Source: Candidatus Hydrogenedens sp. (GTDB taxonomy: Bacteria > Hydrogenedentota > Hydrogenedentia > Hydrogenedentales > Hydrogenedentaceae). Taken from it: a stretch of DNA of 64,000 nucleotides. Below, piece after piece: positions 8,610 through 22,481 of this stretch. The notes beneath the pieces were generated by a model. The model ran no database searches. It was not told the origin of the DNA and saw only the letters and a list, made by a program, of their open reading frames with translations. The number at the start of each line of letters is the position of its first letter. Position 1 is the stretch's first letter. The DNA lies in contig JBMFRC010000004.1 of assembly GCA_049968235.1 (NCBI GenBank), positions 1-64,000 on the forward strand, read 5' to 3'. Position numbers and translations under genes: made by a program.

Positions 8610-11600
8610 TCAAAATATACAGGTAAGAAGCCAGTCGTCTTCTATTTTGTTGAGGTTGGGAGATAGGTAGATGAGATTTGATTGCTTATCCCATTTGTCA
8701 TATTCAGTGCTGTTGAGCAGGACCTGTTTGATAGGTTTATTGTAAGGGTGTCGGATTCTCAATATTACCTTGCGGAAATTTTTATCTTTCGTTAGATGTA
8801 TTGTTCCGATTATCTCATCATTATTTATATTTGACTGTAAACTATAACTTACTTTACCGAAGTAGGTATCTGCATTTTTAATTGTAATCTGCTTTCCTGC
8901 TTCGAGCCAGTAGGATGGAATAAATGGTGCTAACCAGAGGGTATCTTTATCTTCACGGAGGAACATTTTTCGTGTTTGAATGAGGAACCAGCCGGTTTCG
9001 TGTGTTTTGTTCCATGCTCCGATATTGTGGAAATGTTCCCAGAACGATAGGTTTTCTGTGTTCAGTAAAGAAGGAATGGCATTGAAATAGGAACGGATAA
9101 AGGGTTTTACTTCGTCTCGCAGGGCGTACGTTTCTGCTATTCGTGTATAATAGGGCTGTATCTTTGAAAATCCACCTAAATTGAATGGGTCTTGCTTGTT
9201 CCCTTCTTCCGGATAATCACCTTCCCCGCTAAAGGCGAACCAGTAATCGGAATGAAGGAACCAGTAATCTTCCATGTGCTGGACAATGTTTTCCGCATCG
9301 TTGCTGTATGGGTCCAGAATACCGAGAGGGATCAGATGATGCGGTCCCAATTCGACATCATACGCCCAACTTCTGCCGGCATCTTCTCCGGGAAACATTT
9401 CACCGGAGGTACCAAAGGTATATAAGTTGGGTGGGTAGGGTAATATCCATTTTCCGTTTGAAAGCGGTAATACGGGTGTTCTCTCCTTATTCCATTCAAA
9501 TGCCCTCAGAATAGATACGGTTAATTCCTTTGCTCCTCTGAGATATTTATCTGCTAATGGGTAGTTTATATCTTTCAATATGGAGCCTATCCCATGAAGT
9601 CCCGCACAAAAATGTCCCTGTATAGCGAACCTATATGCGAAACGATTCCAATCTGCACCGACGCCCGGTGGCATAAGTCCGTATTCCGGTATTCTCTCCC
9701 CATCGATATCCACCTTTTTTGTCTTCTCGCACTGTGCCATTATCCAATCACAAACACGGGAAAGTTTATCTGCATATCTTGATAGCCATTCTTTGTCTCT
9801 CGTAAGTTGGTAATGCTCGGCTAATGTCCATAAGTGCCAGCCTGTTCCCATCAGTGTATAACCCGTGGTCAGATACCCTGCACGGTTATATTTACTGATA
9901 AAATATTCCAATGATTTCCGTGAAAACTCATGCCAGCCCATAAGGTCCATTCCATATACAATCGAATGTGCTTCACTTTCTAATGGACCGTATGACATGG
10001 AGGCTATCCATGGTGCAATGAACTTTCCTTCAGAACGACCTGCTATCAAGCAGTGAACCTGAGATGCTTTGATAACATTATTCAGCAAGGGTTCGGGTAT
10101 GCTTATTTCTATTGAGTCTGCAAATAACTTTTTCCAGTATTCCACTGTTTTTTCCAGGAGTTGCTCTTCTTCTATGTGTTCGATTTCGTTTGTATTCATA
10201 TCCGTATCGGATGGGATGATAACACATAACTTGATAAAAGAACCTGAAGATACGGGATGATTTATGAAGATATTTTCTCCATTTATCTCAGCGATTGCAT
10301 TCTCTATTTTGCAAATACCTAATATCTTGTCATCCTCTTTTACAAATATAATCTGATTTTTCTTTTCTAATTCTGCTTTTATTCCCTCTCTTTTATGGGA
10401 GTAAAAAGAAAGAGAAAAATCGGAATGTTTCTCTTTCCCATCGTCATTTTTCATTTCGAATTGTGAGATACACAGTGATTTTTTCTCTTTATAGGGTGCA
10501 ACAAAGGTTCTTGACCAATAGGTAATACCATCGTCATTTTTTTCTATAACAGGCACCGGCATCCAATCTTGATAAAGAGTGCGTTTTAATTTGTCGCTAT
10601 TCCCCATACGAACCTTCATAAAAAAGTCGTTAAACTGGATAGAACCTTCTCTCTCCACGATGAATTTATTATTATCACATGCGAGGGACAACATTGTGGG
10701 ACCATTGTCTTGAACGGGATGATGAATTTTTTTCATTGCATTTGAAAAGGTTTGTTCCGGAAGTGAACGGACACTATCAAGAACACTTTGTTTGCCTTCT
10801 ATCGTCTTTTTGTATTCATTTATCGTAAGAGAGGAAGATTGCAAAACAGCAAAGACACCTACAGAAGGCACATACACACAGGGATGGGTTAATATATCTT
10901 CTATTGCAATACAAAGTTTTGTATCTGGCAGATGAATCCATAACAGGGTTCTATCCCCTTTATCACTTCGAGGGATGCTGTGAAGGAGATTAAGTGTAAG
11001 TGGCTCAGAAAGTTTCCATAATTGACACAACGAATTTGACGACTCTAAAAATGTTCCATTATAAATCTGGAGCGTTGCCTGAGTATTTGAATCGCCTTGT
11101 TCTTTTTCCAATCTTATAACAGTTTTGTCCCAGTATGAATTAGTATATGCATTCAAATTTTTAATATATAGTGGCTTATCACTTTCAAAAATCCACCTGA
11201 TTTTCTCGGTGCCTTTCCAGATAAAAAGATTATCCCGCCATGGGATATGTAAAGAACATTGGTTCCCTTTTACTTCGACCTTGCCTTCTACATTTTGCCA
11301 TTTCCCCTGCCATGGAGATTCGCCTGTCCATGCTTCCACTTTGATTTGTGATGGTATATTATTATCAGCAAATTCAACTGAAAGGTCTGTTAATTTTCGT
11401 CTTTCATACCATCGCAATCCTATACATTTTACTCCCTTATAATCCGGAACCTCATAGTTTCCTTCTTCCCGGGGCTGTAGTTTTGTCTCTAAAGATATAT
11501 CCTCTGCCGGGAACTCCTCTACTCTGGAACAATGAGCCCCTTCATACCGCTTTGGGTCGCATGTAATTACATCTGCAAACAAGGCAATGTCCAGATTATT

Positions 11601-12146
11601 GGTTATATTCTCCTGTCTCGCATTATCTTCTAAAACCAATTTTGCATTAGCCCAATTCGCACAATCACAGGTAATGCCATCATTCCCAGCTTTAACTACA
11701 AGACGCAGTACACGGGCGTTATTCAAGTCAATCTTAACCGGCACAGGAGAATCTAATTCGCGTATTACACCACTGTCCCAGCGTTTTTCACCATCCACAA
11801 ATATCTGGAAAACCACGCTACCTGTATTTGTCCCACTTTGCCTCTGAACTCCTGCCTCACACTCGAAATACTTATATTGACTGTTTAAATCAACTATAAT
11901 CTCCCCCGAAGCATGATGTCCTATACCTTTTTGATACTTCTTTTCTCCTATTTGCAACTCCATTGGAGTTTGCCCGGATGAATGTGCGGATACATCCCAG
12001 CCTGTCTCTCCCCAACCCTGCGTAATTGAAACAATACGCTCCGGTATATCACTCAAATATATTATCTTATCCGCATAACACGGTAAAATTATAATAAATA
12101 AGGGAACGATTATCAGTCCACACATTTTCAATACACTTCTTGTCAT
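8610..12146 (-). CDS. Large secreted carbohydrate-active protein. It has an N-terminal NPCBM-like carbohydrate-binding module and a C-terminal alpha/alpha-toroid glycosidase-like region.
   Basis: 1178 aa with a signal peptide. The NPCBM-like segment runs GIGHHASGEIIVDLNSQYKYFECEAGV ... DCANWANAKL. The C-terminal region is helix-rich and Trp/Tyr-rich, typical of six-hairpin glycosidases. The glycoside hydrolase family is not assignable by eye. Confidence 0.5.
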   Translation of the reverse strand: MTRSVLKMCGLIIVPLFIIILPCYADKIIYLSDIPERIVSITQGWGETGWDVSAHSSGQTPMELQIGEKKYQKGIGHHASGEIIVDLNSQYKYFECEAGVQRQSGTNTGSVVFQIFVDGEKRWDSGVIRELDSPVPVKIDLNNARVLRLVVKAGNDGITCDCANWANAKLVLEDNARQENITNNLDIALFADVITCDPKRYEGAHCSRVEEFPAEDISLETKLQPREEGNYEVPDYKGVKCIGLRWYERRKLTDLSVEFADNNIPSQIKVEAWTGESPWQGKWQNVEGKVEVKGNQCSLHIPWRDNLFIWKGTEKIRWIFESDKPLYIKNLNAYTNSYWDKTVIRLEKEQGDSNTQATLQIYNGTFLESSNSLCQLWKLSEPLTLNLLHSIPRSDKGDRTLLWIHLPDTKLCIAIEDILTHPCVYVPSVGVFAVLQSSSLTINEYKKTIEGKQSVLDSVRSLPEQTFSNAMKKIHHPVQDNGPTMLSLACDNNKFIVEREGSIQFNDFFMKVRMGNSDKLKRTLYQDWMPVPVIEKNDDGITYWSRTFVAPYKEKKSLCISQFEMKNDDGKEKHSDFSLSFYSHKREGIKAELEKKNQIIFVKEDDKILGICKIENAIAEINGENIFINHPVSSGSFIKLCVIIPSDTDMNTNEIEHIEEEQLLEKTVEYWKKLFADSIEISIPEPLLNNVIKASQVHCLIAGRSEGKFIAPWIASMSYGPLESEAHSIVYGMDLMGWHEFSRKSLEYFISKYNRAGYLTTGYTLMGTGWHLWTLAEHYQLTRDKEWLSRYADKLSRVCDWIMAQCEKTKKVDIDGERIPEYGLMPPGVGADWNRFAYRFAIQGHFCAGLHGIGSILKDINYPLADKYLRGAKELTVSILRAFEWNKERTPVLPLSNGKWILPYPPNLYTFGTSGEMFPGEDAGRSWAYDVELGPHHLIPLGILDPYSNDAENIVQHMEDYWFLHSDYWFAFSGEGDYPEEGNKQDPFNLGGFSKIQPYYTRIAETYALRDEVKPFIRSYFNAIPSLLNTENLSFWEHFHNIGAWNKTHETGWFLIQTRKMFLREDKDTLWLAPFIPSYWLEAGKQITIKNADTYFGKVSYSLQSNINNDEIIGTIHLTKDKNFRKVILRIRHPYNKPIKQVLLNSTEYDKWDKQSNLIYLSPNLNKIEDDWLLTCIF

Positions 12147-12258: not shown

Positions 12259-12669
12259 TTAATGAAATACAAACAGAAATATTGTTCCGCGATGAATTTT
12301 CATACACTTAATAAATTGGTAATAATTTTTATCAATTTGTCCTTCTCTTTCGTATCGCTTATAGCAATTAATAGAAATTAATAGAGCCAGTACTGTTAAA
12401 GCATTATCATTTATTTTCTTTTTACCTGTCTTGTGATAGAGATAATGGTTTTTATCTAAAAAATAAACGAACAAAAAAGAGGCAATTCTTTTATTACCAT
12501 CTACGAAAGGATGGTCCTTAATTATAAAATATAAGAGATGTGCGGATTTTTCTTCGAGTGATGGATACAAATCTTTACGGTCAAAACTCTGATATATATT
12601 GCCCAATATTGCCTTGAATTTTTCCCCAACTTCCTGACCAAAAAGTATGCCTGCTTCTTTTTTTGCCAT
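12259..12669 (-). CDS. Doc-type Fic domain (death-on-curing toxin family). Probably the C-terminal half of a split RhuM-Fic/Doc gene.
   Basis: 136 aa. HPFVDGNKRIASFLF matches the Doc active-site motif HxFx(D)GNKR. The reading frame stays open upstream to 12765 and overlaps the end of the preceding ORF. Confidence 0.7.
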   Translation of the reverse strand: MAKKEAGILFGQEVGEKFKAILGNIYQSFDRKDLYPSLEEKSAHLLYFIIKDHPFVDGNKRIASFLFVYFLDKNHYLYHKTGKKKINDNALTVLALLISINCYKRYEREGQIDKNYYQFIKCMKIHRGTIFLFVFH

Positions 12670-12746
12670 TAAATCTTTCTTAATTTCCTCTATAACTTTC
12701 CGTGCTCCCTCATAGCCTAAAATAAATTTCTCTTTTGCCGACTTTA

Positions 12747-13316
12747 CTATCTTAAGTTTTCTCTGTCATACTGTTCCAACAAAGTCAAAGTTTTAGCATA
12801 GTTAGCCAGTAAGTTTAAAATTTCCTGCTCTTGTCCAGCAAGTAATTCATGTTTTGCTTTTTCTTGTAAAAGTGATATTGCTCCGTGGAGTTCTTCAAAC
12901 TGCTTCTGTGATCGTAGAAGCCTTTCTTCATTTATCGTATAACCTTTAACCAGATGTTCTTTAAGCGTTTTAGTTGCCCAGATACGGAATTGAGTACCGC
13001 GTAAAGACTTAACTCTATAGCCTACAGAGATTATTACATCAAGGTTGTAAAAATCTATTTCTCTTTCTACCTGTCTTTTACCCTCTTTTTGAACTATTCG
13101 GAATTTCCGAATAGTTGAATTTTTATCAAGTTCTCTTTCTTTATATATATTTTTTATATGTTCATTGATAGTTGGTATCCCTTTATCAAAAAGTATTGAC
13201 ATCTGTTTTTGAGTGAGCCACACAGTTTCATCTTTAAGTCGAACTTCTAATTGAGGTCCTTCCTTTGAACTATAAATTACAATTTCACCTTTTTTGAAAT
13301 CGTCTTGTTGCTTCAT
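12747..13316 (-). CDS. RhuM-family domain protein. Probably the N-terminal half of a split RhuM-Fic/Doc gene.
   Basis: 189 aa. YNLDVIISVGYRVKSLRGTQFRIWATKTLKEHLVKGY is the conserved RhuM core. The ORF stops 77 nt before the Doc ORF start, in a different frame. Confidence 0.65.
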   Translation of the reverse strand: MKQQDDFKKGEIVIYSSKEGPQLEVRLKDETVWLTQKQMSILFDKGIPTINEHIKNIYKERELDKNSTIRKFRIVQKEGKRQVEREIDFYNLDVIISVGYRVKSLRGTQFRIWATKTLKEHLVKGYTINEERLLRSQKQFEELHGAISLLQEKAKHELLAGQEQEILNLLANYAKTLTLLEQYDRENLR

Positions 13317-13541: not shown

Positions 13542-15350
13542 TTAGTACACATATAATTTTGTGGGGATGTTGCCATTCCAGCGGGACCATGTATCGTAAT
13601 TTCTATTAATTGTTTCACTGTTGATGGATTTAATCACCCAAATTCCCGCAGGTGCATTAACATCGTATTCGATTTTATTATCATCTAAAAACACGAAGGA
13701 TGAATATATTTTTTCTCTTGAAGGATTTTTGTTGATGAGTTCTGATAATAATTTGTCGGGTGAAAGGTTGTTTCTCTCGGGTAAATACAATAAGCCCAAT
13801 TTCTCATCATTATAGACACAAACATACAAACTGCCTGCACATTCAGGTGCAAAAACGAACCACGATTCCTTTTGAGCAAAGGGTGTATATTGGGATGGAA
13901 TATGTACGGGGGAATTTCCTACGGCAAATCTTTTGTAAACGCCTGTATTGTTCCAGCACCACCATTTACCCCTCCCTTTTATATGGAAACACTTATTAAT
14001 ATCTATTTCCCTATCATTCAATAATAAGGTCGTAGGTCTCGGAATAATCATGGCACGCAGACCTCTATATACTCCTCCTGCACTAATCAGATATTCTGGA
14101 CCTCCACTATATATTTCAGGAGTTCCGTTTTCCCCATAACCTATCTGAACAAAATAATCATAGGGCTTTTCAATTGCCCATTTCTTCACAATAGGAGGGA
14201 CTGTGTATGTAGATAAAACAGCAAAAAGTACTTGAGAAGAACGGGTCATTTCTTTGCCCGGTGCATCATCACTTTCAGGCAGACACCACCATCGCATTAA
14301 TGCCGTGTGTGGGTCAATCACCAATGATGTTGTATTTGCATATTCAAATCTACGACGGAAAGGGGCACATCTGCGAAACTGTGAACTGCCTAACGCGTAT
14401 TTCCAATTGATGCTGTCCAGAACCTTATGTGCTCTAACCTTCACCTCCGCCGAATCAGGAAATTCTTCCAGATTTAGTAATGCCTGAACCGCATATAACA
14501 AATAAGGAATGGAATTAAACTCATATTCGCCGTTCCAAAGCATTTCATCAAGATAAGTAACAAGCCATTTTTCCAAACCGTTGTTTTTGTTATCATGTTC
14601 AGGCTTGCCGGGAGTAGTTGTAGAATTCCCATATTTAAACAACCACTGATTTTTCAAGTATCTGCTACTTTCCGTCATCAATTGGTGATTTTCCGTGTCG
14701 CGAATCCAGCCCAATGACCTTGGCACCATCTCCCGTGGTTGCCCTCCTTCTTCTACCAAAAGGACTTTTAGTAAATGCTCTAAGGTCTCCGGATATATCA
14801 GGTCCTGATTATGTCCAAAAAGATATAGAATTTTGGTAAGCACTACCTCCGTAAAATCATAATCGCCTTTATATCCGAACCAGGAAGAACCACTGCCCGA
14901 CCACGGCTCCAACTGTTGTAGATATTCATTTACTTCCTTGATTTCCTCTCCACAAGCAAGTTTTGCTAAACATACATATGGGGAATGTCCTTTTCCATAC
15001 TTTTTCCAATCTAATATGGGTTTTCCTGCAATTGACTGGATATACTCCTTGATATAATTAGATTTGTAATCAATCTCATCCTTTCCATCTTCCACAAATA
15101 TATTTTCATCCCATTGTGGACCTGCTTCACCCCAGGATAATGGGGTAATTGATTCGCGTCCTGCACCTAATAATTCATCAACAAATAAAGGTAAAAGAAA
15201 TAAGGGAATTAAGAGGAAAGTAAGCCCTGAAAAAGTGTAAAAAATTAATCTACTTAGCAAGAAGAAAACTTTCATTTTCAATTTTATAGAATTACTTAGA
15301 AAAATCCATTTATACCTGCAAATATTATCAGGAATAAGCCTATAATCCAC
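13542..15350 (-). CDS. Signal-anchored secreted hypothetical protein, possibly a polysaccharide lyase or hydrolase accessory.
   Basis: 602 aa as in the ORF track. The start is more likely the internal MKVFFLLSRLIFYTF... near 15275. The hydrophobic N-terminus is followed by a Trp-rich soluble domain. No recognisable catalytic motif. Confidence 0.4.
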   Translation of the reverse strand: MDYRLIPDNICRYKWIFLSNSIKLKMKVFFLLSRLIFYTFSGLTFLLIPLFLLPLFVDELLGAGRESITPLSWGEAGPQWDENIFVEDGKDEIDYKSNYIKEYIQSIAGKPILDWKKYGKGHSPYVCLAKLACGEEIKEVNEYLQQLEPWSGSGSSWFGYKGDYDFTEVVLTKILYLFGHNQDLIYPETLEHLLKVLLVEEGGQPREMVPRSLGWIRDTENHQLMTESSRYLKNQWLFKYGNSTTTPGKPEHDNKNNGLEKWLVTYLDEMLWNGEYEFNSIPYLLYAVQALLNLEEFPDSAEVKVRAHKVLDSINWKYALGSSQFRRCAPFRRRFEYANTTSLVIDPHTALMRWWCLPESDDAPGKEMTRSSQVLFAVLSTYTVPPIVKKWAIEKPYDYFVQIGYGENGTPEIYSGGPEYLISAGGVYRGLRAMIIPRPTTLLLNDREIDINKCFHIKGRGKWWCWNNTGVYKRFAVGNSPVHIPSQYTPFAQKESWFVFAPECAGSLYVCVYNDEKLGLLYLPERNNLSPDKLLSELINKNPSREKIYSSFVFLDDNKIEYDVNAPAGIWVIKSINSETINRNYDTWSRWNGNIPTKLYVY

Positions 15351-15513
15351 ATGGCAATGGTTGTAGGGGTAATATAGATGTAATTTTCTTCATCACTACT
15401 GGTTTGCTTGAAAAATTCCTTCATATCTAACATAGATAATTTCCCTTTATTTATGGTTTATGTATTTTATGGATACCATATATTATATATATCCCCTCAG
15501 ATTTTTTTTCGTT

Positions 15514-17907
15514 CTATTGTTTTAACAACCACATTTCACAAATTCGAGAGTGTTGTCGCCAATTCTTTTTTAAATCGTCTATGGGAAGTGTCCATTTTAC
15601 AATAATTTCTCTATCCTGAATACTTTCTAATGGGATAATATAGTCTTTAAACTCGCCTAATTCAATTACTTTTTCATCGGAACTATTCATTTTTTTTCCA
15701 TCAATCATAATCTGCGGTTTTCCCAACCCTATGATACGAAGGATATATGTAGCACTGGGTTCTAATCCTTGATATTGTGCCTCACCGAATTCCAAAGAAC
15801 TCAACCAACTAATTCTTTTCCTTGTTTTTCCATTATCAAACCACCACAAAGTAGGTTCTTGCCATGCTTCTTCTGCAGGATTGGTATAATGAATTTCACA
15901 CCGCTTTATATGAGGTGATTTTCCTGTATTTCCTACATCATCATAAAAAGAACCGTATCCTGGTGTTTCCCAGTGGGCAATTATGTTTAATCGTTTTATT
16001 TTTTCTTTTTCCGAACTTAATTTTCGTATATACTGAAATTGGTCTTCCAACCACCAACGATTATTTAAGGGTATGTCAATATAATCTAATGATGCACCTC
16101 GTTCCCCTCCAATGGCTCCATATTTTTCCACACTGGATTGTAATCCGATACTTTTAAATAATGCGTCATATAAATCTGCAATTTTCTCTTTTAAATCCGT
16201 AGATATCGGTTCTGACATTGTTTTATTTAAAATGTTCATTGCCTTTTCCATCACTACTTCTGCACCCATTTTCTCCGCATTTTTTAATACCTGATATGCC
16301 CTTTGTTCCAGTCCTTGTTCGTAGATAACCTTTCTTCGTATATATACATCGTAATAAGCACGCACAAGGCACATTTGCCAGCGCCAATTGTTCTTTAATT
16401 GAGATGCTTTTTGTTCCAACTCCTGCCACAATTTTAGTGTTCCTTCAATGGCTCCATTATCAACAATACTTCCCCGCCAATTATTTTCTAAAGACAAGAT
16501 TCCTTCTGCTGATAATTCGGCAATTTCGCTACTAAAAAACACATTAGAATATTCAATTAAAACATCTCTAACTTTTTGTTCTGGATTCCAGCCCATTGCA
16601 CTCCATATTATTTTATTTACATCGTCATGAATACCATCTGAATAAGTAATAAAGCCATCACAATAAGGTTGAAACCAATTATGAATATATGCATACTGAA
16701 CAGGTCTCGGATTAATTCCTTCTCTTCCAATCACCGATGAGAAAGCAATGTCCCACCACGGTACTGGATATTGACAGAGTTTATTATGGGTTATATCGGG
16801 ATACATTCGAAGTTTATATTCCGATGGTAAATTTTGCCGTAAATATGCTATGGGTGGACTGGAAGGTCCCTCACAAAGTCCTCCCATCCATTGAGGTTTT
16901 TTATTCTTGATATAATCAAAGACAAATTCAGATTGAGCAGTAGTAAACCCCTGTAAAGATAACCATATTCTTGCTTCTGGATGTAGCGGAATTAGCAATT
17001 TTGACAGCTCTTCTAAAAAAGGCAGAACTAATTCTGGCGGATTATCTCCCGGGTCTCCTCCGGGGAAAAACACACCTGTTATAACCGGGCAATCTTTGTA
17101 TAATTCCTCATGTCTTTTTAACATATCCTCTCGTTTCTCTTTGTCGTTTAAATCAAAATCTGCAGGGGTCCATACCCAGTAATCTAATCCATATTTTTTA
17201 CATATCTCACTTATTGCCCGGTTCATTTCTCTTCGAGAAACAGGCATTAAAGGAGCAGGTCGGTCATCTTGAAAAGGGATATTTTCAATACTATTGACCC
17301 CAAAAAAAGTTAATTCCCTTATATACTGGTCATATTGTTCAATACTCCATGCATCATAAGAATTTGCCTGTGCCCGGTAACCCAATTGATGCCCCCGTAT
17401 GGGAGATATAGGTGATTCTATAATGTTCACTGGAATTTCTATCTTCAATGAATTCGGAGAATATTTCATTATCCTTAACAATTTTCCTACTCCGAATAAA
17501 ATCCCCCGATTGTCTTTTCCTATAATCCAGATTCTATTTTTCTCTTGCACTTTTTCATTAAATATTGCGAAACCTTCCGATTTAATCTGCTTTAACTTGT
17601 CTTTGGGAAAAGAAATTAAATGTTTTTTGTCAACAGGCGATAATGAATTAATATTTGCAAGTAATATATAGTCGCTATTGGGTAAAATTTCTGGAGTATT
17701 TTGTAATAAAATATGAGTCCGTTTCTCAATTTCTTCCGAGAGAACTCTAACAATATTTTGTAAGACATCATCTTTCTCATTACCAATAAGGCAAATTTTA
17801 AAATTATTTAAATCTAATATAGAGCCATTCGTTTCAGCATTTACATTTGTCCACAGAAGACATAAAACACACAGGATAAACATTTGTAAAAAGATAATTT
17901 TTTTCAT
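15514..17907 (-). CDS. Secreted glycoside-hydrolase-like protein. It has a TIM-barrel-like core and a C-terminal helical domain. The family is uncertain.
   Basis: 797 aa. The signal peptide reads MKKIIFLQMFILCVLCLLWTNVNA. An acidic cluster FFPGGDPGDNPPE sits in a beta/alpha region. It lies 49 nt from the neighbouring secreted-protein gene on the same strand. Confidence 0.4.
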   Translation of the reverse strand: MKKIIFLQMFILCVLCLLWTNVNAETNGSILDLNNFKICLIGNEKDDVLQNIVRVLSEEIEKRTHILLQNTPEILPNSDYILLANINSLSPVDKKHLISFPKDKLKQIKSEGFAIFNEKVQEKNRIWIIGKDNRGILFGVGKLLRIMKYSPNSLKIEIPVNIIESPISPIRGHQLGYRAQANSYDAWSIEQYDQYIRELTFFGVNSIENIPFQDDRPAPLMPVSRREMNRAISEICKKYGLDYWVWTPADFDLNDKEKREDMLKRHEELYKDCPVITGVFFPGGDPGDNPPELVLPFLEELSKLLIPLHPEARIWLSLQGFTTAQSEFVFDYIKNKKPQWMGGLCEGPSSPPIAYLRQNLPSEYKLRMYPDITHNKLCQYPVPWWDIAFSSVIGREGINPRPVQYAYIHNWFQPYCDGFITYSDGIHDDVNKIIWSAMGWNPEQKVRDVLIEYSNVFFSSEIAELSAEGILSLENNWRGSIVDNGAIEGTLKLWQELEQKASQLKNNWRWQMCLVRAYYDVYIRRKVIYEQGLEQRAYQVLKNAEKMGAEVVMEKAMNILNKTMSEPISTDLKEKIADLYDALFKSIGLQSSVEKYGAIGGERGASLDYIDIPLNNRWWLEDQFQYIRKLSSEKEKIKRLNIIAHWETPGYGSFYDDVGNTGKSPHIKRCEIHYTNPAEEAWQEPTLWWFDNGKTRKRISWLSSLEFGEAQYQGLEPSATYILRIIGLGKPQIMIDGKKMNSSDEKVIELGEFKDYIIPLESIQDREIIVKWTLPIDDLKKNWRQHSRICEMWLLKQ

Positions 17908-17956
17908 ATAGTAACCTTCATAGATAGGTCTATTGTTTCAGCAATTTTAGATATTC

Positions 17957-19903
17957 TTATCTATGATACACTTTACTTTTCCGCAAAACAAAAATAAGCA
18001 ATAAGGTGGGGAATATAAGCAGGAGGGAATTATTAGTAATGCTTAAACCATGCGAGACATGTAAATAGACTTTTGGAGTTTCCACTACATTCAAATCATC
18101 TGAAACATGACACCAATACCAGCCTGAATCTTCAACGGATAAATCTTCAATATAAAGTTCCTGCCCTGATACATACGGAATAATTGTTGGATTGGGACAA
18201 AGATAATCTTTGCAATAATACCACTCATAGCCTATATTCCCCTGTGCTCCTTCTACATGAATAGTAAAAAGTTGCGATTCTCCAACAATTTTATTAATAT
18301 ATGTTTCCCCTTCTATCCATGCTATTAATTCGCTATCACCCTCTAAATCCCCCTCTCCTTCAAATATTCCTTCGATACTCCCTTCAGGTTCTCCATCTAT
18401 AATTCCTTCACTTTCAGGGCTCCCTTCTGATTCTCCTTCTATAATCCCCTCGCCTTCAAAAATACCTTCCGCCTCTCCATCTATAATTCCTTCACCTTCT
18501 GTAGGAATTCCTTCTGGAATTCCCTCGCCTTCACCATATCCCTCATTTATCAAGGTAAAATATGCTACATAATTTTTGTTCTCAATTATATTTGTATCTT
18601 TCCTGTTGGGAGTTAATAAACCATCTGACCAATGGTCAAAAAGATATCCACTATCCGCTACTGCAATTACTTCAGTTCCATCATTACCACGCATGATATT
18701 TTGCGTTGCATTTCCCAAAATATTTCCTCCAATATCCGCAGTATAAGTTACTGTAAATATCGGTGGTCTTTTTAATTCTGTAATTTTATAACTTATTTTC
18801 CCTCCTGCATAATAAAAATCCCCACCCACATATAAATTCCCTTGAGAATCGAACACCAGAGATCTGATTTCTTTATTTGAGCCATTTACTCCTGATGTTA
18901 TGCTACGCCAGTTACCTGAATACCACCATGCTAACCCATTTGCACTTATATTACCACCTGCAATGGAAAAATTACCTCCAATAAAAATAGATTGTGATGA
19001 TTTGGGTAAAATTGAATAAACGATGCCATTTACCCCGCCATCTAAAGAAGTCCACGAAGAACCATCCCAAATAGATATATTACTCACATTCACCCCACCT
19101 GCTTGTGTAAAACTTCCACCTGCATACAATCTACCCGTTTCATCTACCGCAAGAGAGTACACAGGTCCGTTAATTCCAGTTCCAAGGGAATGCCAATTCG
19201 TTCCATCCCAGCGGGCTATATTATTTGCAGAAACATTACCTGCATACTGGAATTGTCCCCCTGCATATATATTTCCATTAGAATCCGATGTTAATGACAA
19301 AACATAAGGAGAAGTGCCACCGCTCACACCCAAATAAGGTTCTACCCATTGAGAACCATTCCAATATGCAATCCGATTAATAGGTGTAGAACCGGACTGA
19401 GTAAATTTGCCTCCTACAAAGACTGTCCCATTATTTGTAATAGTTACCGTATATACAGCATCATTAAAGCCACTTCCTACCGCTACCCAACTCGAACCAT
19501 TCCACTTTGCCACTCGATTTCGGAGATTTGAACCCGAATAGGTAAATGAACCCACTGCATAAATTTCACCCCCTGTGGATATACATATTTTTTCTACCGC
19601 ATTATTAAAACCCTGTCCCATGGCTTGCCAATTTATTCCATTCCACCTCGCTACTCGATTTGCACTTACGCCATTTATTGAAGTAAAAGTGCCTCCACAA
19701 TAAACAATATTGTTATTATCTATGCCAACAGAGGTTATTAATCCATCTGTCCAATTAGGACTTAAAGGTTGCCAATCTTCATCAAGATAATTTGGGATAT
19801 CTTCTGAATATATAAAGGTCGAAATAATTCCAATAAAAACGACTATACCCAATCGTAGAAAAAATAGCATTCGTATCCCTTTCCTTTCATTTTTTCTGTT
19901 CAA
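17957..19903 (-). CDS. Secreted multidomain protein with four parts. They are W-containing beta-propeller repeats, a Listeria/Bacteroides-type B-repeat, an EG-rich acidic spacer plus Ig-like domain, and a C-terminal hydrophobic-basic tail.
   Basis: 648 aa. About 6 repeats of the pattern I/VARWNG-W-LG-G-NG-VY-L--D--GN-Y-GG-F. The B-repeat element reads GYLFDHWSDG. The spacer reads GEGEGIPEGIPTEGEGIIDGEAEGIFEGEGIIEGESEG.... The Ig-like signature reads CKDYLC...EDSGWYWCHV. The C-terminus reads LLLIFPTLLLIFVLRKSKVYHR. Confidence 0.6.
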   Translation of the reverse strand: MNRKNERKGIRMLFFLRLGIVVFIGIISTFIYSEDIPNYLDEDWQPLSPNWTDGLITSVGIDNNNIVYCGGTFTSINGVSANRVARWNGINWQAMGQGFNNAVEKICISTGGEIYAVGSFTYSGSNLRNRVAKWNGSSWVAVGSGFNDAVYTVTITNNGTVFVGGKFTQSGSTPINRIAYWNGSQWVEPYLGVSGGTSPYVLSLTSDSNGNIYAGGQFQYAGNVSANNIARWDGTNWHSLGTGINGPVYSLAVDETGRLYAGGSFTQAGGVNVSNISIWDGSSWTSLDGGVNGIVYSILPKSSQSIFIGGNFSIAGGNISANGLAWWYSGNWRSITSGVNGSNKEIRSLVFDSQGNLYVGGDFYYAGGKISYKITELKRPPIFTVTYTADIGGNILGNATQNIMRGNDGTEVIAVADSGYLFDHWSDGLLTPNRKDTNIIENKNYVAYFTLINEGYGEGEGIPEGIPTEGEGIIDGEAEGIFEGEGIIEGESEGSPESEGIIDGEPEGSIEGIFEGEGDLEGDSELIAWIEGETYINKIVGESQLFTIHVEGAQGNIGYEWYYCKDYLCPNPTIIPYVSGQELYIEDLSVEDSGWYWCHVSDDLNVVETPKVYLHVSHGLSITNNSLLLIFPTLLLIFVLRKSKVYHR

Positions 19904-20260
19904 ATTTTGAGTATTTTACTACACTACTTGATTTCTCCTTCATCCAAAATAATTGTTCCGTCTTTGCTTGAATACATTCTTTTATTATCCGAATTAAATT
20001 CATATTTTACATCCAGAGATAATGATTCAATAGATAGAATTTTATAATACTTACATTTATTGGTTGCAAGTAATCAAGAGATTCTATATCCTTACTATCT
20101 TTTATTTTTGTATTTATTTCCTATTAATTTGATTTCTTAAAAATTAAAATTTTTTCTTTTTTCATTACATTGTATAAATCGAATATTACTTTATATTTTT
20201 TTCTAAACGAAATCCTATGTCTTCCATAAAATTAATAGTAAACTCTACTGTATCTATTTC

Positions 20261-21257
20261 CTATCCCGGATAAGTTGTATTACCAATATTGGGTTTGAGT
20301 ATTCTATACATTTCTAAATAGAATTTTTTCATATTCTCGTTATATAATTCCACCTTATCTTTTCCATTTCCCCTGACACCAATAAAATCATTTCCTATCT
20401 GAACAGTATCACATCCCAGGTCTTTAAGGGAATGAACTTCATTTTGCACATAATCAAGAGCAATAGAGTATGATGGCGATGTTACAATTCCATCTACTGA
20501 ATTATCTGGCAATTCTATTTTTCTTGCATCTCCTACTTTAATCTCTACATTGCCTAATTTCAGATTTAATTTTTCTTTTATTTCTATATAATCTTTGACG
20601 GATGCTATCATTAAATCAACATTTTTAATAGAAGAATTAATAAAGTTACGACCTCTATCTGAGTTATCACTAACAGATAATAATCTTGCTAATATATAAA
20701 AGTTTTGAGTTTTTTCGTTCTTTGTTAATTTACCGATATAATTGTAGTAATTATCATAACTATTAGAGTTCTGAAATAAAAGAGTTCCGGAAGTTGTAAT
20801 ATAAGAGACCACTTCATCTTTAATCTTTTTATTTCATCTAATACATTAATAGACTCGGTTTTAACCTTAGATTGAATAACGCATAAATGGGAGATATCTA
20901 TCCTATAAAATTTATCCCTAATAATTGTAATTCAATGGCTGTTGTCCCACTTCCCAAAAAAGGTTCAAAAAATATATCCTCCTTCTTTTAATCCGATAAT
21001 ATTTAACAATGCCCGAACCATTTGAGGGTGAAATTTCCCTTTATACGGATAGATCCAGTGTGTTAAATACTGATTAACAGAGTGCGTCCGATTTTTTCTA
21101 TTATTTGGAAATAATCTGTATATTTCCCAGATACAGTTTTAAAGTAAGACCCTTTTTTCCTAATCAGTTCTTTTTTTTCTTCAGTTGCCTCTAATATTCT
21201 GAACTCTCTTAATTCGTTTATCACTTCATAATCAATGCCTAATGCTTTTATTTCCAT
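20261..21257 (-). pseudogene. Fragmented N6/N4-type DNA methyltransferase remnant with multiple frameshifts. No cognate restriction gene is present.
   Basis: On the minus strand there are three pieces. ORF 21063-21257 comes first. It is followed in another frame by ...YPYKGKFHPQMVRALLNIIGLKEGGYIF. A +1 shift in a T7 run near 20965 then gives FEPFLGSGTTAIELQLLGINFIGIDIS (motif I). ORF 20261-20812 then carries LPDNSVDGIVTSPSY, a degenerate DPPY/SPPY motif IV. Confidence 0.6.
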
Positions 21258-21506
21258 TTCTGCTAATGACAGTTCATATATATTGGATATTATCTAATAA
21301 AACAATATCTCTATTGGAACCGTATTTATCTTCTTTTTCTATTCAGAGAGAATTTTCTGCTTTTCGTTTCATTACTTTACCTTTTGTTCCTGACTTTTCA
21401 TTTACATTTATTATTTATGTTTCAAATAATTCAAAATGAAATTTCATATTCAGAAGTATCAATCTACTTTTATAAGTATTAGTATATATAAACCTGTTCT
21501 CTATAT

Positions 21507-22481
21507 TCATTCTTTTAATGTTTGGATATTGCCTTCTTTCTTCTGCATTCTTTTTTCCCAATGAGCTTTTAACTTATCCCTTTTTTTCCATCGGCGATGA
21601 AACCAGAGCCACTGTTCGGGGTGTTTACGGATAATATCTTCGATAGCATTCTGGCATGTTTGTGTGTTTATTAATATATCTTCTTGAAGGCTTCCTGTAT
21701 TTACCATTTTAAGAGGAGGTAATATTTCAAGGAAAAAGGTTCCATCATTATTTCGAATTATATACACAGGATGAACAGGGGCTTTTGTTCGTGCATATAA
21801 GTAGGCGGGACCAATTGTTGCCCAACAGGGCTTACCAAAAAATTCTACAGGGGCTCCATTATCCCGCGGAGATTGGTCTATCAGAAGTCCCACAAACCAT
21901 CCTTCTTTTATTAACTTAATAATTTCATTTGCGGAATGGTCTTTAGGTATTGTTTTTATCTTTGCATGTGTTCGAATGTCATCAACAAACTTGTTTAAAT
22001 TGGGTTCATCAAACTCACGAACGATTTCCGCCACAGGATAGCCATGACTACACATTAAGGATGCCATCATCTCCCAATTTCCCAGATGAGCACTAATAAA
22101 TAAGGCACCCTGTTTGTTTCGTCGATATTCTTCTATATACTCTACACCTTTATAAGAAGCAATATTTTTGTATTTCTTTTCTGCCAAATCAGGTAAATGT
22201 GGGAACTCAAATGCTACAAGGAACATATTTCTTGTGGCATCCCATAGTATTTTCCTCTTTTCATATTTGGTAAGTGTGTCTCCAAAAGCGTATTCAATAT
22301 GTTTCCCACCATCTTTTTGGATTCTTGGATATAAATAATAGGATATGAAAGCAAAAAATATCGCTATCTTACGAGAAAGTGGAAGAGGTATTTTTTTTAA
22401 CAAATTTAGTAAAGAGATGGCTATAAATGAAATTATTTTTTGTTTGATTTTTTTTGTTTTTTTGCCCATATTAAATTTCAA
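21507..22481 (-). CDS. Lipid A biosynthesis lauroyl/myristoyl acyltransferase (LpxL/HtrB family).
   Basis: 324 aa with an N-terminal membrane anchor. ALFISAHLGNWEMMA matches the HX4D-type acyltransferase region of the LpxL family. It overlaps the upstream gene by 11 nt. Confidence 0.65.
   Translation of the reverse strand: MKFNMGKKTKKIKQKIISFIAISLLNLLKKIPLPLSRKIAIFFAFISYYLYPRIQKDGGKHIEYAFGDTLTKYEKRKILWDATRNMFLVAFEFPHLPDLAEKKYKNIASYKGVEYIEEYRRNKQGALFISAHLGNWEMMASLMCSHGYPVAEIVREFDEPNLNKFVDDIRTHAKIKTIPKDHSANEIIKLIKEGWFVGLLIDQSPRDNGAPVEFFGKPCWATIGPAYLYARTKAPVHPVYIIRNNDGTFFLEILPPLKMVNTGSLQEDILINTQTCQNAIEDIIRKHPEQWLWFHRRWKKRDKLKAHWEKRMQKKEGNIQTLKE

What the first reader, a model, noticed from the sequence alone, without database searches (positions are those of the whole stretch)
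13542..19903. Three-gene secreted locus ending in a eukaryote-like beta-propeller and Ig protein with an unusual C-terminal tail
Three large secreted proteins lie on one strand with short gaps, which suggests a surface or polysaccharide-handling operon. The last one (17957-19903) combines several parts. It has W-containing propeller blades, a Listeria/Bacteroides B-repeat and a GEGE/IPEG acidic spacer. It also has an Ig-like domain carrying the classic Cys...DSGWYWC signature. It ends in a hydrophobic helix plus an RKSK basic tail, LLLIFPTLLLIFVLRKSKVYHR. That tail resembles a C-terminal sorting signal but carries no PEP or LPXTG motif. The signal may be uncharacterised, and a cognate processing enzyme may exist elsewhere.
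Basis: partly seen in the sequence, partly recalled or inferred. Interest (0 to 1): 0.5.

Follow-up and report, generated by a model that had tools for sequence, protein, structure and literature searches.

The report
Membrane-anchored glycan-binding propeller in glycosidase operon
A Candidatus Hydrogenedens gene cluster encodes a sugar-binding propeller protein held in the membrane by one C-terminal helix, next to a probable glycosidase; the helix is most likely a plain anchor, not a new sorting signal, although related bacteria carry a real, uncatalogued sorting-type tail in the same position.

Summary
The described features are real, with corrections. All genes are on the minus strand, so the propeller/Ig protein (A, 17957-19903) is first, not last. 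The conserved core is A, a GH115/GH67-like glycosidase (B) and an overlooked 45-aa membrane ORF. The Ig-like domain lacks the canonical B-strand cysteine. Nothing is specifically eukaryote-like.

A's tail matches no curated sorting-signal model. It fails most published criteria for a tripartite sorting signal:
- It occurs only in orthologues of A (14 distinct tails, all from 36-39% GC loci).
- No paralogue with another architecture was found.
- The end is variable (7-13 residues, net charge -2 to +4).
- No sortase-type gene lies in the window or beside A in related loci.

A's terminal Ig module is homologous (hhalign 99.2%) to the last module of multi-Ig proteins, mostly from Hydrogenedentota. 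Those end in G-x-P-[VLA]-[AG]-G, a helix and RR[RK][KR], a convincing tripartite tail without a curated model. A has Ser for the invariant Pro, Asn for the near-invariant Gly, and no Arg cluster.

Best reading (0.55): a stop-transfer anchor tethering a glycan-binding propeller beside its glycosidase. Rival (0.27): a diverged form of that uncatalogued signal.

The parts
17957..19903 (-). Gene A, 648 aa: signal peptide, beta-propeller, InlB B-repeat, acidic linker, Ig-like domain, C-terminal helix, short basic end. First gene of the cluster.
   Evidence: ORF. It is 100% identical to the NCBI MAG protein 'InlB B-repeat-containing protein [Candidatus Hydrogenedens sp.]'. Domains, model.
19805..19903 (-). 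N-terminal signal peptide region of A (residues 1-33; likely cleavage after ...FIYS).
   Evidence: Read directly from the sequence. The model shows a helix at residues 2-15 of the M12-start version. Orthologues have S-x-S or V-F-A sites at the same place.
18773..19774 (-). Beta-propeller of A (about residues 44-377), with blades carrying the repeated [AI]-x-W-[ND]-G-x-x-W motif.
   Evidence: Pfam Rax2, DUF5122 and Reg_prop all above cutoff. pLDDT is mostly above 90. Top PDB fold matches are Bacteroides hybrid two-component sensor ectodomains BT4663, BT4673 and BT3049.
18548..18754 (-). InlB B-repeat (Flg_new_2) domain of A, residues 384-452.
   Evidence: Pfam PF18998, 31.3 bits against a cutoff of 23.6.
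18332..18547 (-). Acidic Glu/Gly/Ile-rich disordered linker of A, 72 residues.
   Evidence: pLDDT below 50 for model residues 442-513. Composition E21 G20 I11. Tandem repeat of 42 nt x 3.1 copies at 18369-18499.
18053..18325 (-). Ig-like beta-sandwich of A (about residues 527-617) with C-strand W and F-strand DSGWYWC but no B-strand Cys.
   Evidence: Sub-threshold Ig_3 and V-set matches. Strands mapped. hhalign 99.2%, E 1.6e-19 to the terminal Ig module of the multi-Ig proteins.
17960..18052 (-). The tail of A (residues 618-648): junction HGLSITNN, hydrophobic helix SLLLIFPTLLLIFVL, end RKSKVYHR.
   Evidence: Helix at model residues 614-636. No curated sorting model matches. It scores -0.8 bits against the tail HMM built from the canonical tails. 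The junction aligns to G-x-P-V-A-G of those tails.
15514..17907 (-). Gene B, 797 aa: secreted glycoside-hydrolase-like enzyme with an N-terminal GH20b/GH67N-type domain, a (beta/alpha)8 barrel, a helical domain and a beta-sandwich.
   Evidence: Pfam GH67N 28.5 bits. PDB profile hits to GH84 NagJ and GH67. Model pLDDT 85.7, pTM 0.85. Foldseek top hits are GH115, GH67, GH84 and GH20 at E 1e-17 to 1e-10. About 50% identity across phyla. Follows A in all 11 related loci.
15296..15433 (-). Small conserved ORF s45, 45 aa, with one hydrophobic helix (…YIYITPTTIAMWIIGLFLIIFAGINGFF).
   Evidence: Found. Orthologues at 49-89% identity lie right after B in all 11 related loci. Annotated as hypothetical protein in the NCBI MAG. 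No family match.
13542..15275 (-). Gene C, 577 aa from the internal ATG (the longer GTG start is at 15350): exported or membrane-anchored protein of unknown fold.
   Evidence: ORF. The start is revised because s45 overlaps the long form and the orthologue is 577 aa. No Pfam, NCBIfam or PDB match. Present after s45 only in the closest relatives.
8610..12146 (-). NPCBM-domain protein, 1178 aa, with a weak GH95-like/(alpha/alpha)6 match. It directly follows C in close relatives and is separated from it here by an inserted RhuM-Fic pair.
   Evidence: Pfam NPCBM 123 bits. PDB NPCBM-type matches down to E 2.9e-30. Synteny.

Best explanation
Protein A is a bitopic (type I) envelope protein. A cleavable N-terminal signal peptide exports it. 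The C-terminal hydrophobic helix acts as a stop-transfer anchor in the cytoplasmic membrane, and the few Lys/Arg residues after it are the ordinary positive-inside flank. The helix is not removed by a dedicated sorting enzyme. The membrane-proximal Ig-like domain and the 72-residue acidic disordered stalk hold a B-repeat and a beta-propeller away from the membrane. The propeller binds a glycan or oligosaccharide and keeps it near B, the secreted GH115/GH67-like glycosidase translated from the next gene. s45, C and the NPCBM protein act as further components of this polysaccharide-degrading cluster.

Shown here: the domain anatomy, the operon-like conserved order A-B-s45, the glycosidase fold of B, and the absence of any known sorting-signal match.

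Inferred: glycan binding by the propeller, membrane retention of the helix, co-transcription, and any physical association of A, B and s45.
For: - The tail occurs only in orthologues of A. These comprise 8 full-length relatives in a 5.8-billion-protein search, and all 10 loci from the metagenome scan, which have the same architecture and 36-39% GC. In the top 150 of the exhaustive profile search, only A orthologues match through the tail.
- Across 14 distinct orthologue tails the helix sequence is free to vary. The end is 7-13 residues with net charge -2 to +4 and 0-2 Arg. One example is YKHNGEGENHDA. That fits a positive-inside flank better than a conserved Arg cluster.
- The only conserved residues, [HY]-G-L-S, resemble the ordinary boundary between successive Ig domains in tandem-Ig relatives. 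For example LDVYEHLSITSHP compares with A's LHVSHGLSITNN.
- The tail scores -0.8 bits against an HMM of the canonical Hydrogenedentota tails, and the orthologues score -1 to -3.
- No sortase-type enzyme was detected among the window ORFs scanned or called next to A in related loci.
- The best fold matches are Bacteroides glycan-sensing ectodomains, although TM-scores are only about 0.35. From my own knowledge of those structures, not tested here, they are also propellers followed by an Ig-like domain and a membrane helix.
- A-B-s45 order is conserved in 11 of 11 loci.
- B has a glycosidase fold.
- GH5, GH39-like and NPCBM genes lie in related loci.
Against: - In diderm bacteria (my own knowledge), a signal peptide plus one C-terminal helix plus a very short basic end is the usual look of cleaved sorting signals. 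Plain type I anchors with tiny cytoplasmic ends are less common.
- A's terminal module is homologous to modules that carry a convincing tripartite tail, and the junction aligns in register.
- Homologous propellers in other lineages carry surface-sorting devices such as T9SS C-terminal domains. This meets one published criterion for a sorting signal.
- Several orthologues have a Pro early in the helix, a feature that I recall favours intramembrane cleavage.
- A whole-proteome count of A-type tails in this genome was not possible.
- The top-150 display limit could hide single-Ig paralogues.
- Glycan binding by the propeller is inferred from fold and context only.
Confidence: 0.55

Rival explanations
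1. The tail is a diverged, low-GC form of an uncatalogued tripartite sorting signal found mainly in Hydrogenedentota: G-x-P-[VLA]-[AG]-G, then a helix, then RR[RK][KR]. After Sec export, an unidentified membrane enzyme elsewhere in the genome (exosortase-like, rhombosortase-like or CPBP-type) would cleave near HGLS. It would hand the protein to a surface anchor, so the propeller is displayed outside the cell to capture polysaccharide.
For: - 19 of the top 150 profile hits are otherwise different multi-Ig proteins ending in this tail at the exact C-terminus. P is invariant, and G and RR are nearly invariant.
- Named members are seven Hydrogenedentes/Hydrogenedentota entries, plus two labelled Nitrospiraceae.
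- None of the ten tails scanned (nine canonical plus P0234) reaches an NCBIfam cutoff. Only one of the nine scanned against Pfam passes IPTL-CTERM, at 25.4 against 20.8.
- hhalign between the A module and these modules gives 99.2% and aligns A's G-L-S-I-T-N onto G-x-P-V-A-G.
- Intermediates exist. P0234 reads SGLSVGGLAGL...LRKFFHMI. P0243/P0283, from Ca. Hydrogenedens at 41% GC, reads KGIPAYNY...SKKRGVLKG. This suggests drift with falling GC.
- P0234 sits in an EPS-type locus with a sigma-54 response regulator. PEP-CTERM/EpsH systems are associated with exopolysaccharide loci (title of PMC1569441, listed; the sigma-54 detail is from my own knowledge).
- Propeller homologues elsewhere carry other surface-sorting signals.
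Against: - A has Ser at the invariant Pro, Asn at the near-invariant Gly and no Arg cluster.
- The tail HMM gives -0.8 bits.
- The hhalign alignment stops at the junction and does not cover the helix or the end.
- The terminal residues of the orthologues vary in length and even become acidic.
- The A-type tail is confined to one orthologous family.
- No candidate enzyme lies in the window or next to A.
- For the canonical class itself, multiple copies per genome and independence from the Ig domain were not shown. All but one example follow an Ig domain, a bias of the query.
Confidence: 0.27
2. The tail is a member of an already known sorting system (PEP-CTERM/exosortase, LPXTG/sortase, GlyGly-CTERM/rhombosortase, IPTL-CTERM, MYXO-CTERM or a T9SS C-terminal domain) that is simply too diverged to notice by eye.
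For: - The overall layout is signal peptide, helix and basic end.
- The related canonical tails give weak sub-threshold hits to IPTL-CTERM, PVV-CTERM, MYXO-CTERM and LPXTG models.
- One of them passes Pfam IPTL-CTERM.
Against: - A's whole protein and its isolated tail give no hit at all to any NCBIfam or Pfam sorting model, even at E<=10.
- There is no PEP, LPXTG, GG, IPTL or Cys-containing motif before the helix (read directly).
- There is no T9SS beta-sandwich C-terminal domain. The protein ends 8 residues after a helix.
Confidence: 0.03
3. A is a sensor, not a binding or presenting protein. Like the propeller ectodomains of Bacteroides hybrid two-component systems, it would detect an oligosaccharide. 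It would pass the signal through its membrane helix to a partner membrane protein, possibly s45 or an unlinked kinase, to regulate the cluster.
For: - The top fold matches are exactly such sensor ectodomains.
- A is encoded first, and with a conserved small membrane protein.
Against: - A has only 8 cytoplasmic residues and no output domain.
- The cytoplasmic end is not conserved.
- No kinase, anti-sigma or regulator gene is conserved next to it.
- TM-scores to the sensors are low, about 0.35, and are driven by generic propeller similarity.
Confidence: 0.1

Closest known systems
Periplasmic sensor ectodomains of Bacteroides hybrid two-component systems (BT4663, BT4673, BT3049; Reg_prop propellers followed by an Ig-like Y_Y_Y domain and a membrane helix)
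   Same: They are the best structural matches. Reg_prop repeats are detected in A. The genomic setting is glycan degradation. The shared order of propeller, Ig-like domain and single membrane helix is from my own knowledge of those structures, not tested here.
   Different: A has one propeller, an added InlB B-repeat and a long acidic stalk. It has no cytoplasmic kinase, receiver or AraC output, only 8 residues. Sequence identity is about 10% and TM-score about 0.35.
Surface glycan-binding proteins of polysaccharide utilisation loci (SusE/F-type SGBPs), from my own knowledge
   Same: A non-catalytic, envelope-tethered, multi-domain beta-rich protein encoded beside glycosidases. It is proposed to hold the substrate near the enzymes.
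   Different: SGBPs are N-terminally lipidated outer-membrane lipoproteins in Bacteroidota and come with SusC/D. A has no lipobox, is anchored by a C-terminal helix, and no SusC/D-like genes are present.
Tripartite C-terminal sorting signals (PEP-CTERM/exosortase, LPXTG/sortase, GlyGly-CTERM/rhombosortase, IPTL-CTERM, MYXO-CTERM/myxosortase)
   Same: Location at the extreme C-terminus, an N-terminal signal peptide, a hydrophobic helix and some basic residues at the end. Homologous ectodomains carry other sorting signals elsewhere. These are criteria 1, 4, 6 and 8 of bioRxiv 10.1101/2023.06.07.544157.
   Different: There is no match to any curated model. There is no set of three invariant signature residues beyond what looks like an Ig-domain boundary. 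The basic end is not conserved. The tail is confined to one orthologous family. No cognate enzyme was found.
The uncatalogued G-x-P-[VLA]-[AG]-G / helix / RR[RK][KR] tail of Hydrogenedentota multi-Ig proteins
   Same: The preceding Ig domain is homologous, and the junction aligns in register. Same phylum. Same position at the end of the protein.
   Different: A has Ser for the invariant Pro, Asn for the Gly, Lys/Arg mixed with other residues instead of RRRK, and an Ile/Leu/Phe-rich helix instead of an Ala/Gly/Leu-rich one. The tail HMM score is -0.8 bits.
GH115 and GH67 alpha-glucuronidases, GH84 O-GlcNAcases and GH20 hexosaminidases (for gene B)
   Same: B shares the N-terminal alpha/beta domain, the (beta/alpha)8 barrel and the helical domain. 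Foldseek E-values run from 2.6e-17 to 1e-10. Pfam GH67N/GH20b and a PDB profile hit to GH84 NagJ support this.
   Different: Identity is only 10-14% and TM-scores 0.4-0.5. No catalytic-domain family model matches. Catalytic residues and substrate were not identified. B probably belongs to a separate family.

Membership tests
Tripartite C-terminal protein-sorting signal (criteria of Haft and co-workers, bioRxiv 10.1101/2023.06.07.544157, section 5) | [quoted passage not shown] | tested here: met
   The helix ends 8 residues before the stop codon.
Tripartite C-terminal protein-sorting signal (criteria of Haft and co-workers, bioRxiv 10.1101/2023.06.07.544157, section 5) | 2. [quoted passage not shown] | tested here: inconclusive
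   Only 1 of 37 non-overlapping ORFs of at least 100 aa in the 64-kb window has such an end. There are none in the neighbouring genes of related loci. The whole proteome of the MAG could not be read with these tools.
Tripartite C-terminal protein-sorting signal (criteria of Haft and co-workers, bioRxiv 10.1101/2023.06.07.544157, section 5) | 3. [quoted passage not shown] | tested here: inconclusive
   [HY]-G-L-S is nearly invariant in the closer orthologues but lost in the distant ones (EKLI, KGLI, EGLN). It resembles the ordinary inter-Ig boundary E-H-L-S-I-T. Conservation among orthologues alone does not show a signature motif.
Tripartite C-terminal protein-sorting signal (criteria of Haft and co-workers, bioRxiv 10.1101/2023.06.07.544157, section 5) | 4. 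Strongly hydrophobic segment consistent with a transmembrane helix | tested here: met
   Kyte-Doolittle mean 2.82 over 15 residues. Predicted helix at model residues 614-636.
Tripartite C-terminal protein-sorting signal (criteria of Haft and co-workers, bioRxiv 10.1101/2023.06.07.544157, section 5) | 5. Cluster of two to five basic residues, mostly Arg, at the end | tested here: not met
   The window protein has RKSK, but across 14 orthologue tails the end is 7-13 residues, net charge -2 to +4, with 0-2 Arg. One example is KHNGEGENHDA.
Tripartite C-terminal protein-sorting signal (criteria of Haft and co-workers, bioRxiv 10.1101/2023.06.07.544157, section 5) | 6. N-terminal signal peptide | tested here: met
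   Hydrophobic N-terminus with small residues before ED, conserved in orthologues. Read by eye, no predictor available.
Tripartite C-terminal protein-sorting signal (criteria of Haft and co-workers, bioRxiv 10.1101/2023.06.07.544157, section 5) | 7. Carriers include many pairs with no similarity other than the signal | tested here: not met
   Every protein found with the A-type tail is a full-length orthologue of A.
Tripartite C-terminal protein-sorting signal (criteria of Haft and co-workers, bioRxiv 10.1101/2023.06.07.544157, section 5) | 8. Homologues in other lineages lack the signal or carry a different one | tested here: met
   Propeller homologues carry T9SS C-terminal domains (PF18962) in Bacteroidota, and a different WIGAG...LFLSRRS end in another group.
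Tripartite C-terminal protein-sorting signal (criteria of Haft and co-workers, bioRxiv 10.1101/2023.06.07.544157, section 5) | Alternative for dedicated systems: sorting enzyme encoded next to its single target | tested here: not met
   The conserved neighbours are a glycosidase-like protein and a 45-aa single-helix ORF. No polytopic protease or exosortase-type gene lies in 11 loci.
Known curated sorting domains (PEP-CTERM, LPXTG, GlyGly-CTERM, IPTL-CTERM, MYXO-CTERM, PGF-CTERM, T9SS CTD and the others in NCBIfam 20 and Pfam) | Score at or above the model's curated cutoff | tested here: not met
   No hit for the whole protein or for the isolated 43- and 57-residue tails at E<=10.
Hydrogenedentota G-x-P-x-[AG]-G / helix / RRRK tail (defined here from 19 sequences) | Invariant Pro two residues after the Gly that ends the Ig domain | tested here: not met
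   In the hhalign register, A has Ser at this position.
Hydrogenedentota G-x-P-x-[AG]-G / helix / RRRK tail (defined here from 19 sequences) | Nearly invariant Gly three residues after the Pro, and RR at the end | tested here: not met
   A has Asn at the Gly position and RKSKVYHR at the end. The tail HMM gives -0.8 bits.
Hydrogenedentota G-x-P-x-[AG]-G / helix / RRRK tail (defined here from 19 sequences) | Homologous Ig domain immediately upstream, same phylum | tested here: met
   hhalign 99.2%, E 1.6e-19. Named members are Hydrogenedentes/Hydrogenedentota.
Immunoglobulin superfamily domain (Pfam Ig_3 / I-set type) | Beta-sandwich with C-strand Trp, F-strand D-x-G-x-Y-x-C and a B-strand Cys forming the core disulfide | tested here: inconclusive
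   The Trp and the D-S-G-W-Y-W-C motif are present. The B strand TIHVE has no Cys. Pfam scores are below cutoff. The model is a beta-sandwich at pLDDT about 60.
Glycoside hydrolase of the GH115/GH67/GH84/GH20 structural class (gene B) | N-terminal alpha/beta domain plus (beta/alpha)8 catalytic barrel | tested here: met
   Model pLDDT 85.7. Foldseek E 2.6e-17 to GH115, then GH67, GH84 and GH20.
Glycoside hydrolase of the GH115/GH67/GH84/GH20 structural class (gene B) | Family-specific catalytic residues and sequence membership in one CAZy family | not tested
   No dbCAN or CAZy models were available. Only the N-terminal domain matches Pfam models. Catalytic residues were not mapped.

The most novel reading that the evidence does not exclude
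Hydrogenedentota use a so far uncatalogued C-terminal sorting system whose signal is G-x-P-[VLA]-[AG]-G, a helix and RR[RK][KR]. It is placed after a terminal Ig domain of large surface proteins. The tail of protein A would be its low-GC derivative ([HY]-G-L-S, an Ile/Leu/Phe helix and a Lys/Arg end), still cleaved by an unidentified sorting enzyme. The glycan-binding propeller would then be displayed on the cell surface instead of being held in the inner membrane.
Probability: 0.25. Interest if true: 0.6.

Novelty: new member of a known kind. Interest (0 to 1): 0.35.

Why it matters
Hydrogenedentota are uncultured, and their envelope biology and polysaccharide degradation are known only from genomes.

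If the best reading holds, the locus shows a simple way of tethering a glycan-binding propeller next to a glycosidase, by a C-terminal helix on a long acidic stalk and without the SusC/D machinery. It also flags two uncharacterised families worth biochemical work. One is the widely conserved ~800-aa GH115/67-like enzyme. The other is the 45-aa membrane partner.

The more valuable by-product is the clearly tripartite G-x-P-x-A-G / helix / RRRK tail on large multi-Ig proteins, mostly from Hydrogenedentota. It has no curated model and no known enzyme. Defining it would improve annotation of surface proteins in that phylum and give a handle for finding a new sorting enzyme.

Tried and rejected
- A word-indexed search with the 128-aa Ig+tail module returned nothing, not even the protein itself. 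I treated it as uninformative and replaced it with the exhaustive profile search.
- A tail-only HMM built from 19 canonical tails did not detect A or any other ORF in the window or the loci then held. It did give 17 bits to an LPXTG-type control, so it is only partly specific.
- The genome scan for the exact core GVP[VL]AGLAGL gave 92 hits. 87 were chance matches in high-GC genomes or wrong frames. Only 5 were real tails. The pattern was too narrow to count copies per genome.
- The 469-aa neighbour in L001 ending ...FVLRKFLF looked similar but has several hydrophobic segments and is unrelated.
- I looked for an A-like gene with a canonical tail upstream of B homologues in higher-GC Hydrogenedentes and in a planctomycete. 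There was none.
- The promoter and terminator scan was at chance level and uninformative.
- C gave no match by sequence or profile to Pfam, NCBIfam or PDB.
- The P0234 locus could not be read because no DNA is held, so its unannotated 452-aa neighbour could not be examined.
- Literature search found no paper linking Hydrogenedentes to exosortase or PEP-CTERM.

Full report
**Source and anatomy**

The window is a 36% GC chromosome stretch of a Candidatus Hydrogenedens MAG. Protein A is 100% identical to an NCBI MAG protein named 'InlB B-repeat-containing protein', on a 254-kb contig.

The three ORFs of the finding exist at the stated coordinates, but all lie on the minus strand. The order of transcription is therefore A (17957-19903, 648 aa), B (15514-17907, 797 aa), C (13542-15350). 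A is the first gene, not the last.

A fourth, overlooked gene lies between B and C. It is a 45-aa ORF with one hydrophobic helix (15296-15433), here called s45. It overlaps the long GTG start of C, so C more likely begins at 15275. That gives 577 aa, the length of its orthologue.

Downstream of C come a RhuM-like gene, a Fic/Doc gene and then an NPCBM-domain protein of 1178 aa.

**Protein A in detail**

- Pfam finds Rax2, DUF5122 and Reg_prop propeller repeats and a Flg_new_2 InlB B-repeat, all above their cutoffs. Ig_3 and V-set are below cutoff.
- An AlphaFold2 model built from eight orthologues gives these parts:
  - a confident propeller, pLDDT mostly above 90;
  - a B-repeat;
  - a 72-residue disordered linker (21 Glu, 20 Gly, 11 Ile);
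  - a beta-sandwich at pLDDT about 60;
  - one C-terminal helix, followed by RKSKVYHR.
- The linker is made of about three 14-residue repeats.
- The Ig-like domain has the C-strand Trp and the F-strand DSGWYWC. Its B strand, TIHVE, has no cysteine. The CKDYLC pair is missing in the two most distant of the eight aligned orthologues. The 'classic' disulfide signature is therefore only half there.
- 'Eukaryote-like' is not warranted:
  - The propeller search gave 3267 hits, and every source name among the 120 listed is bacterial.
  - The Ig+tail profile gave 7715 hits, and every member whose source name was looked up is bacterial.

**Is the tail a known signal?**

No. Neither the whole protein nor the isolated tail hits any NCBIfam or Pfam sorting model, even at E<=10.

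**Is the tail shared?**

Full-length relatives of A are few, and all come from 36-39% GC contigs:
- eight in the 5.8-billion-protein search;
- one more (P0237) in the exhaustive search;
- ten loci in the metagenome scan, all with the same architecture.

No paralogue with another N-terminal architecture carried the A-type Ig+tail.

Across 14 distinct tails:
- the junction [HY]-G-L-S is nearly invariant in the closer orthologues, but it becomes KGLI, EGLN or EKLI in the distant ones;
- the helix varies freely;
- the end is 7-13 residues long with net charge from -2 to +4 and 0-2 Arg.

In tandem-Ig relatives the boundary between two Ig domains reads L-x-V-x-E-H-L-S-I-T-x-x-P, very like A's LHVSHGLSITNN. 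The conserved 'GLS' is therefore probably a domain boundary, not a cleavage signature.

Set against the eight published criteria for tripartite sorting signals (bioRxiv 10.1101/2023.06.07.544157), the tail scores as follows:
- it meets 1, 4, 6 and 8;
- it fails 5 and 7;
- it is inconclusive on 2 and 3.

It also fails the alternative test for dedicated systems, because no enzyme gene is adjacent.

**A related, convincing tail elsewhere**

The exhaustive profile search with the Ig+tail module was dominated by giant tandem-Ig proteins.
- Nineteen of the 150 best hits end, right after their last Ig domain, in G-[VTAILM]-P-[VLA]-[AG]-G-x-x-G-L, an Ala/Gly/Leu-rich helix and RR[RK][KR] at the very C-terminus.
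- In their alignment the Pro is invariant. The Gly three residues later and the Arg pair are nearly invariant.
- Named members are seven Hydrogenedentes/Hydrogenedentota entries, two labelled Nitrospiraceae and one 'bacterium'.
- None of the ten tails scanned (nine canonical plus P0234) reaches an NCBIfam cutoff. The best is IPTL-CTERM at 18.2 against 20.5.
- One of the nine scanned against Pfam passes IPTL-CTERM, at 25.4 against 20.8.
- One carrier, P0234, lies in an exopolysaccharide-type locus with a sigma-54 regulator, next to a second multi-Ig protein.

This class looks like a real sorting signal without a curated model. However, multiple copies per genome and independence from the Ig domain were not demonstrated.

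**How A relates to that class**

- Profile-profile comparison of the two terminal modules gives 99.2% probability (E 1.6e-19). It aligns A's G-L-S-I-T-N on G-x-P-V-A-G, and the alignment stops there.
- A thus has Ser at the invariant Pro and Asn at the near-invariant Gly. It lacks the Arg cluster.
- An HMM of the canonical tails scores A at -0.8 bits and its orthologues at -1 to -3.
- Intermediates exist: P0234 reads SGLSVGGLAGL...LRKFFHMI. P0243/P0283, from Ca. Hydrogenedens at 41% GC, reads KGIPAYNY...SKKRGVLKG.
- The canonical tails whose loci were fetched come from 61-65% GC genomes. Drift with base composition is therefore possible.
- Synteny gives no help. B homologues in higher-GC Hydrogenedentes and in a planctomycete are not preceded by an A-like gene.

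**The rest of the locus**

- B belongs to a large family of about 800 aa, about 50% identical across Hydrogenedentes, Planctomycetes and Acidobacteria. Only the N-terminal GH20b/GH67N-type domain is recognised in it.
- Its model is confident (pLDDT 85.7, pTM 0.85). It matches GH115 and GH67 alpha-glucuronidases, GH84 O-GlcNAcases and GH20 hexosaminidases at 10-14% identity.
- A-B-s45 order is conserved in all 11 related loci. C and the NPCBM protein follow only in the closest ones. More distant loci have GH5 and GH39-like genes upstream.
- The best fold matches of A are the glycan-sensing ectodomains of Bacteroides hybrid two-component systems, although TM-scores are only about 0.35.
- No sortase-type enzyme was detected among the window ORFs scanned.
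- A lipid A acyltransferase (161.8 bits) and a weak, sub-cutoff OMP beta-barrel match suggest a diderm envelope.

**Verdict**

The tail is most likely (0.55) a stop-transfer anchor. It would tether a glycan-binding propeller, on an Ig domain and an acidic stalk, next to a secreted GH115/67-like glycosidase.

The sorting-signal reading survives as a rival (0.27). The reasons are the homology to a genuine-looking Hydrogenedentota tail, and the fact that a proteome-wide count could not be made.

The finding itself is a new member of known kinds. The uncatalogued tail class noticed along the way is the more interesting lead.

Noticed in passing
window 15296-15433 (-): Conserved 45-aa single-helix ORF (s45) between B and C. 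It lies right after B in all 11 A-family loci at 49-89% identity. It matches no family and is annotated only as a hypothetical protein.
   Followed up: partly
P0129, P0146, P0147, P0150, P0186, P0198, P0208, P0214, P0226, P0256, P0267 and others; loci L007 15870-15979, L010, L015, L030: Large multi-Ig proteins, mostly from Hydrogenedentota, end in G-x-P-[VLA]-[AG]-G + helix + RR[RK][KR]. This is a tripartite sorting-type tail with no NCBIfam model above cutoff; only one of the nine scanned against Pfam passes IPTL-CTERM. No cognate enzyme was identified.
   Followed up: partly
P0234 context (no DNA held): A multi-Ig protein with an intermediate tail (SGLSVGGLAGL...LRKFFHMI) lies in an EPS-type locus (Bac_transf, Wzy_C, flippase, GT2, sigma-54 response regulator). 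Beside it are a second 1648-aa multi-Ig protein and an unannotated 452-aa protein that could not be read.
   Followed up: no
window 12259-13316 (-): A RhuM-family gene and a Fic/Doc gene sit between C and the NPCBM gene. In the closest relatives (L001, L103, L104) C is followed directly by the NPCBM gene, so this pair is an insertion.
   Followed up: partly
window 19904-21506: A 1.6-kb low-GC stretch (0.295 for 20001-22000) upstream of A holds a 183-aa methyltransferase-like ORF (20261-20812; weak Methyltransf_11 match, reads like a truncated fragment). In L103 the LpxL-like acyltransferase gene abuts A directly. Other relatives have a DUF772 (transposase-type, from my own knowledge) ORF here. 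The region upstream of A is a variable insertion site.
   Followed up: partly
window 15514-17907 (-) and P0288-P0407: B represents a large ~800-aa family (2465 hits; about 50% identity across Hydrogenedentes, Planctomycetes and Acidobacteria). It has a GH115/GH67/GH84/GH20-like fold but only its N-terminal domain is covered by family models. It is probably an uncharacterised glycosidase family.
   Followed up: partly
P0126, P0127, P0135, P0143, P0199, P0202, P0239, P0247, P0249 (C-termini): Other multi-Ig proteins, some with EGEG linkers like A's, end in a recurrent ~45-residue module: H-[ST]-[AS]-D-Y-x-P-Q-D-W-x-I-S-L-S-E-L-L-R-x-I-Q-F-Y-N-x-G-G-Y-x-x-C...E-D-G-F-C. It gives only weak, sub-threshold EF-hand hits.
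   Followed up: partly
P0028, P0043, P0050-P0052, P0062, P0089, P0095, P0103, P0116 (C-termini): Propeller homologues of A from another lineage share a different C-terminal end: a Pro/Thr-rich stretch, W-I-G-A-G-[VI]-[IL]-L...L-F-L-S-R-R-S. This is possibly another lineage-specific anchor or sorting tail.
   Followed up: no
window 13542-15275 (-): C (577 aa) has a long hydrophobic N-terminus and no detectable relative in Pfam, NCBIfam or PDB, even with a profile. The protein at the same position in L006 is only 22% identical.
   Followed up: partly
window 5674-6984 (-); L007 18475-19401; L113 12468-13628: Polytopic acyltransferase-3/HGSNAT-like membrane proteins recur near these glycan loci: in the window, near P0146 and near a B homologue. 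This hints at acetylated or hexosamine-containing substrates.
   Followed up: no
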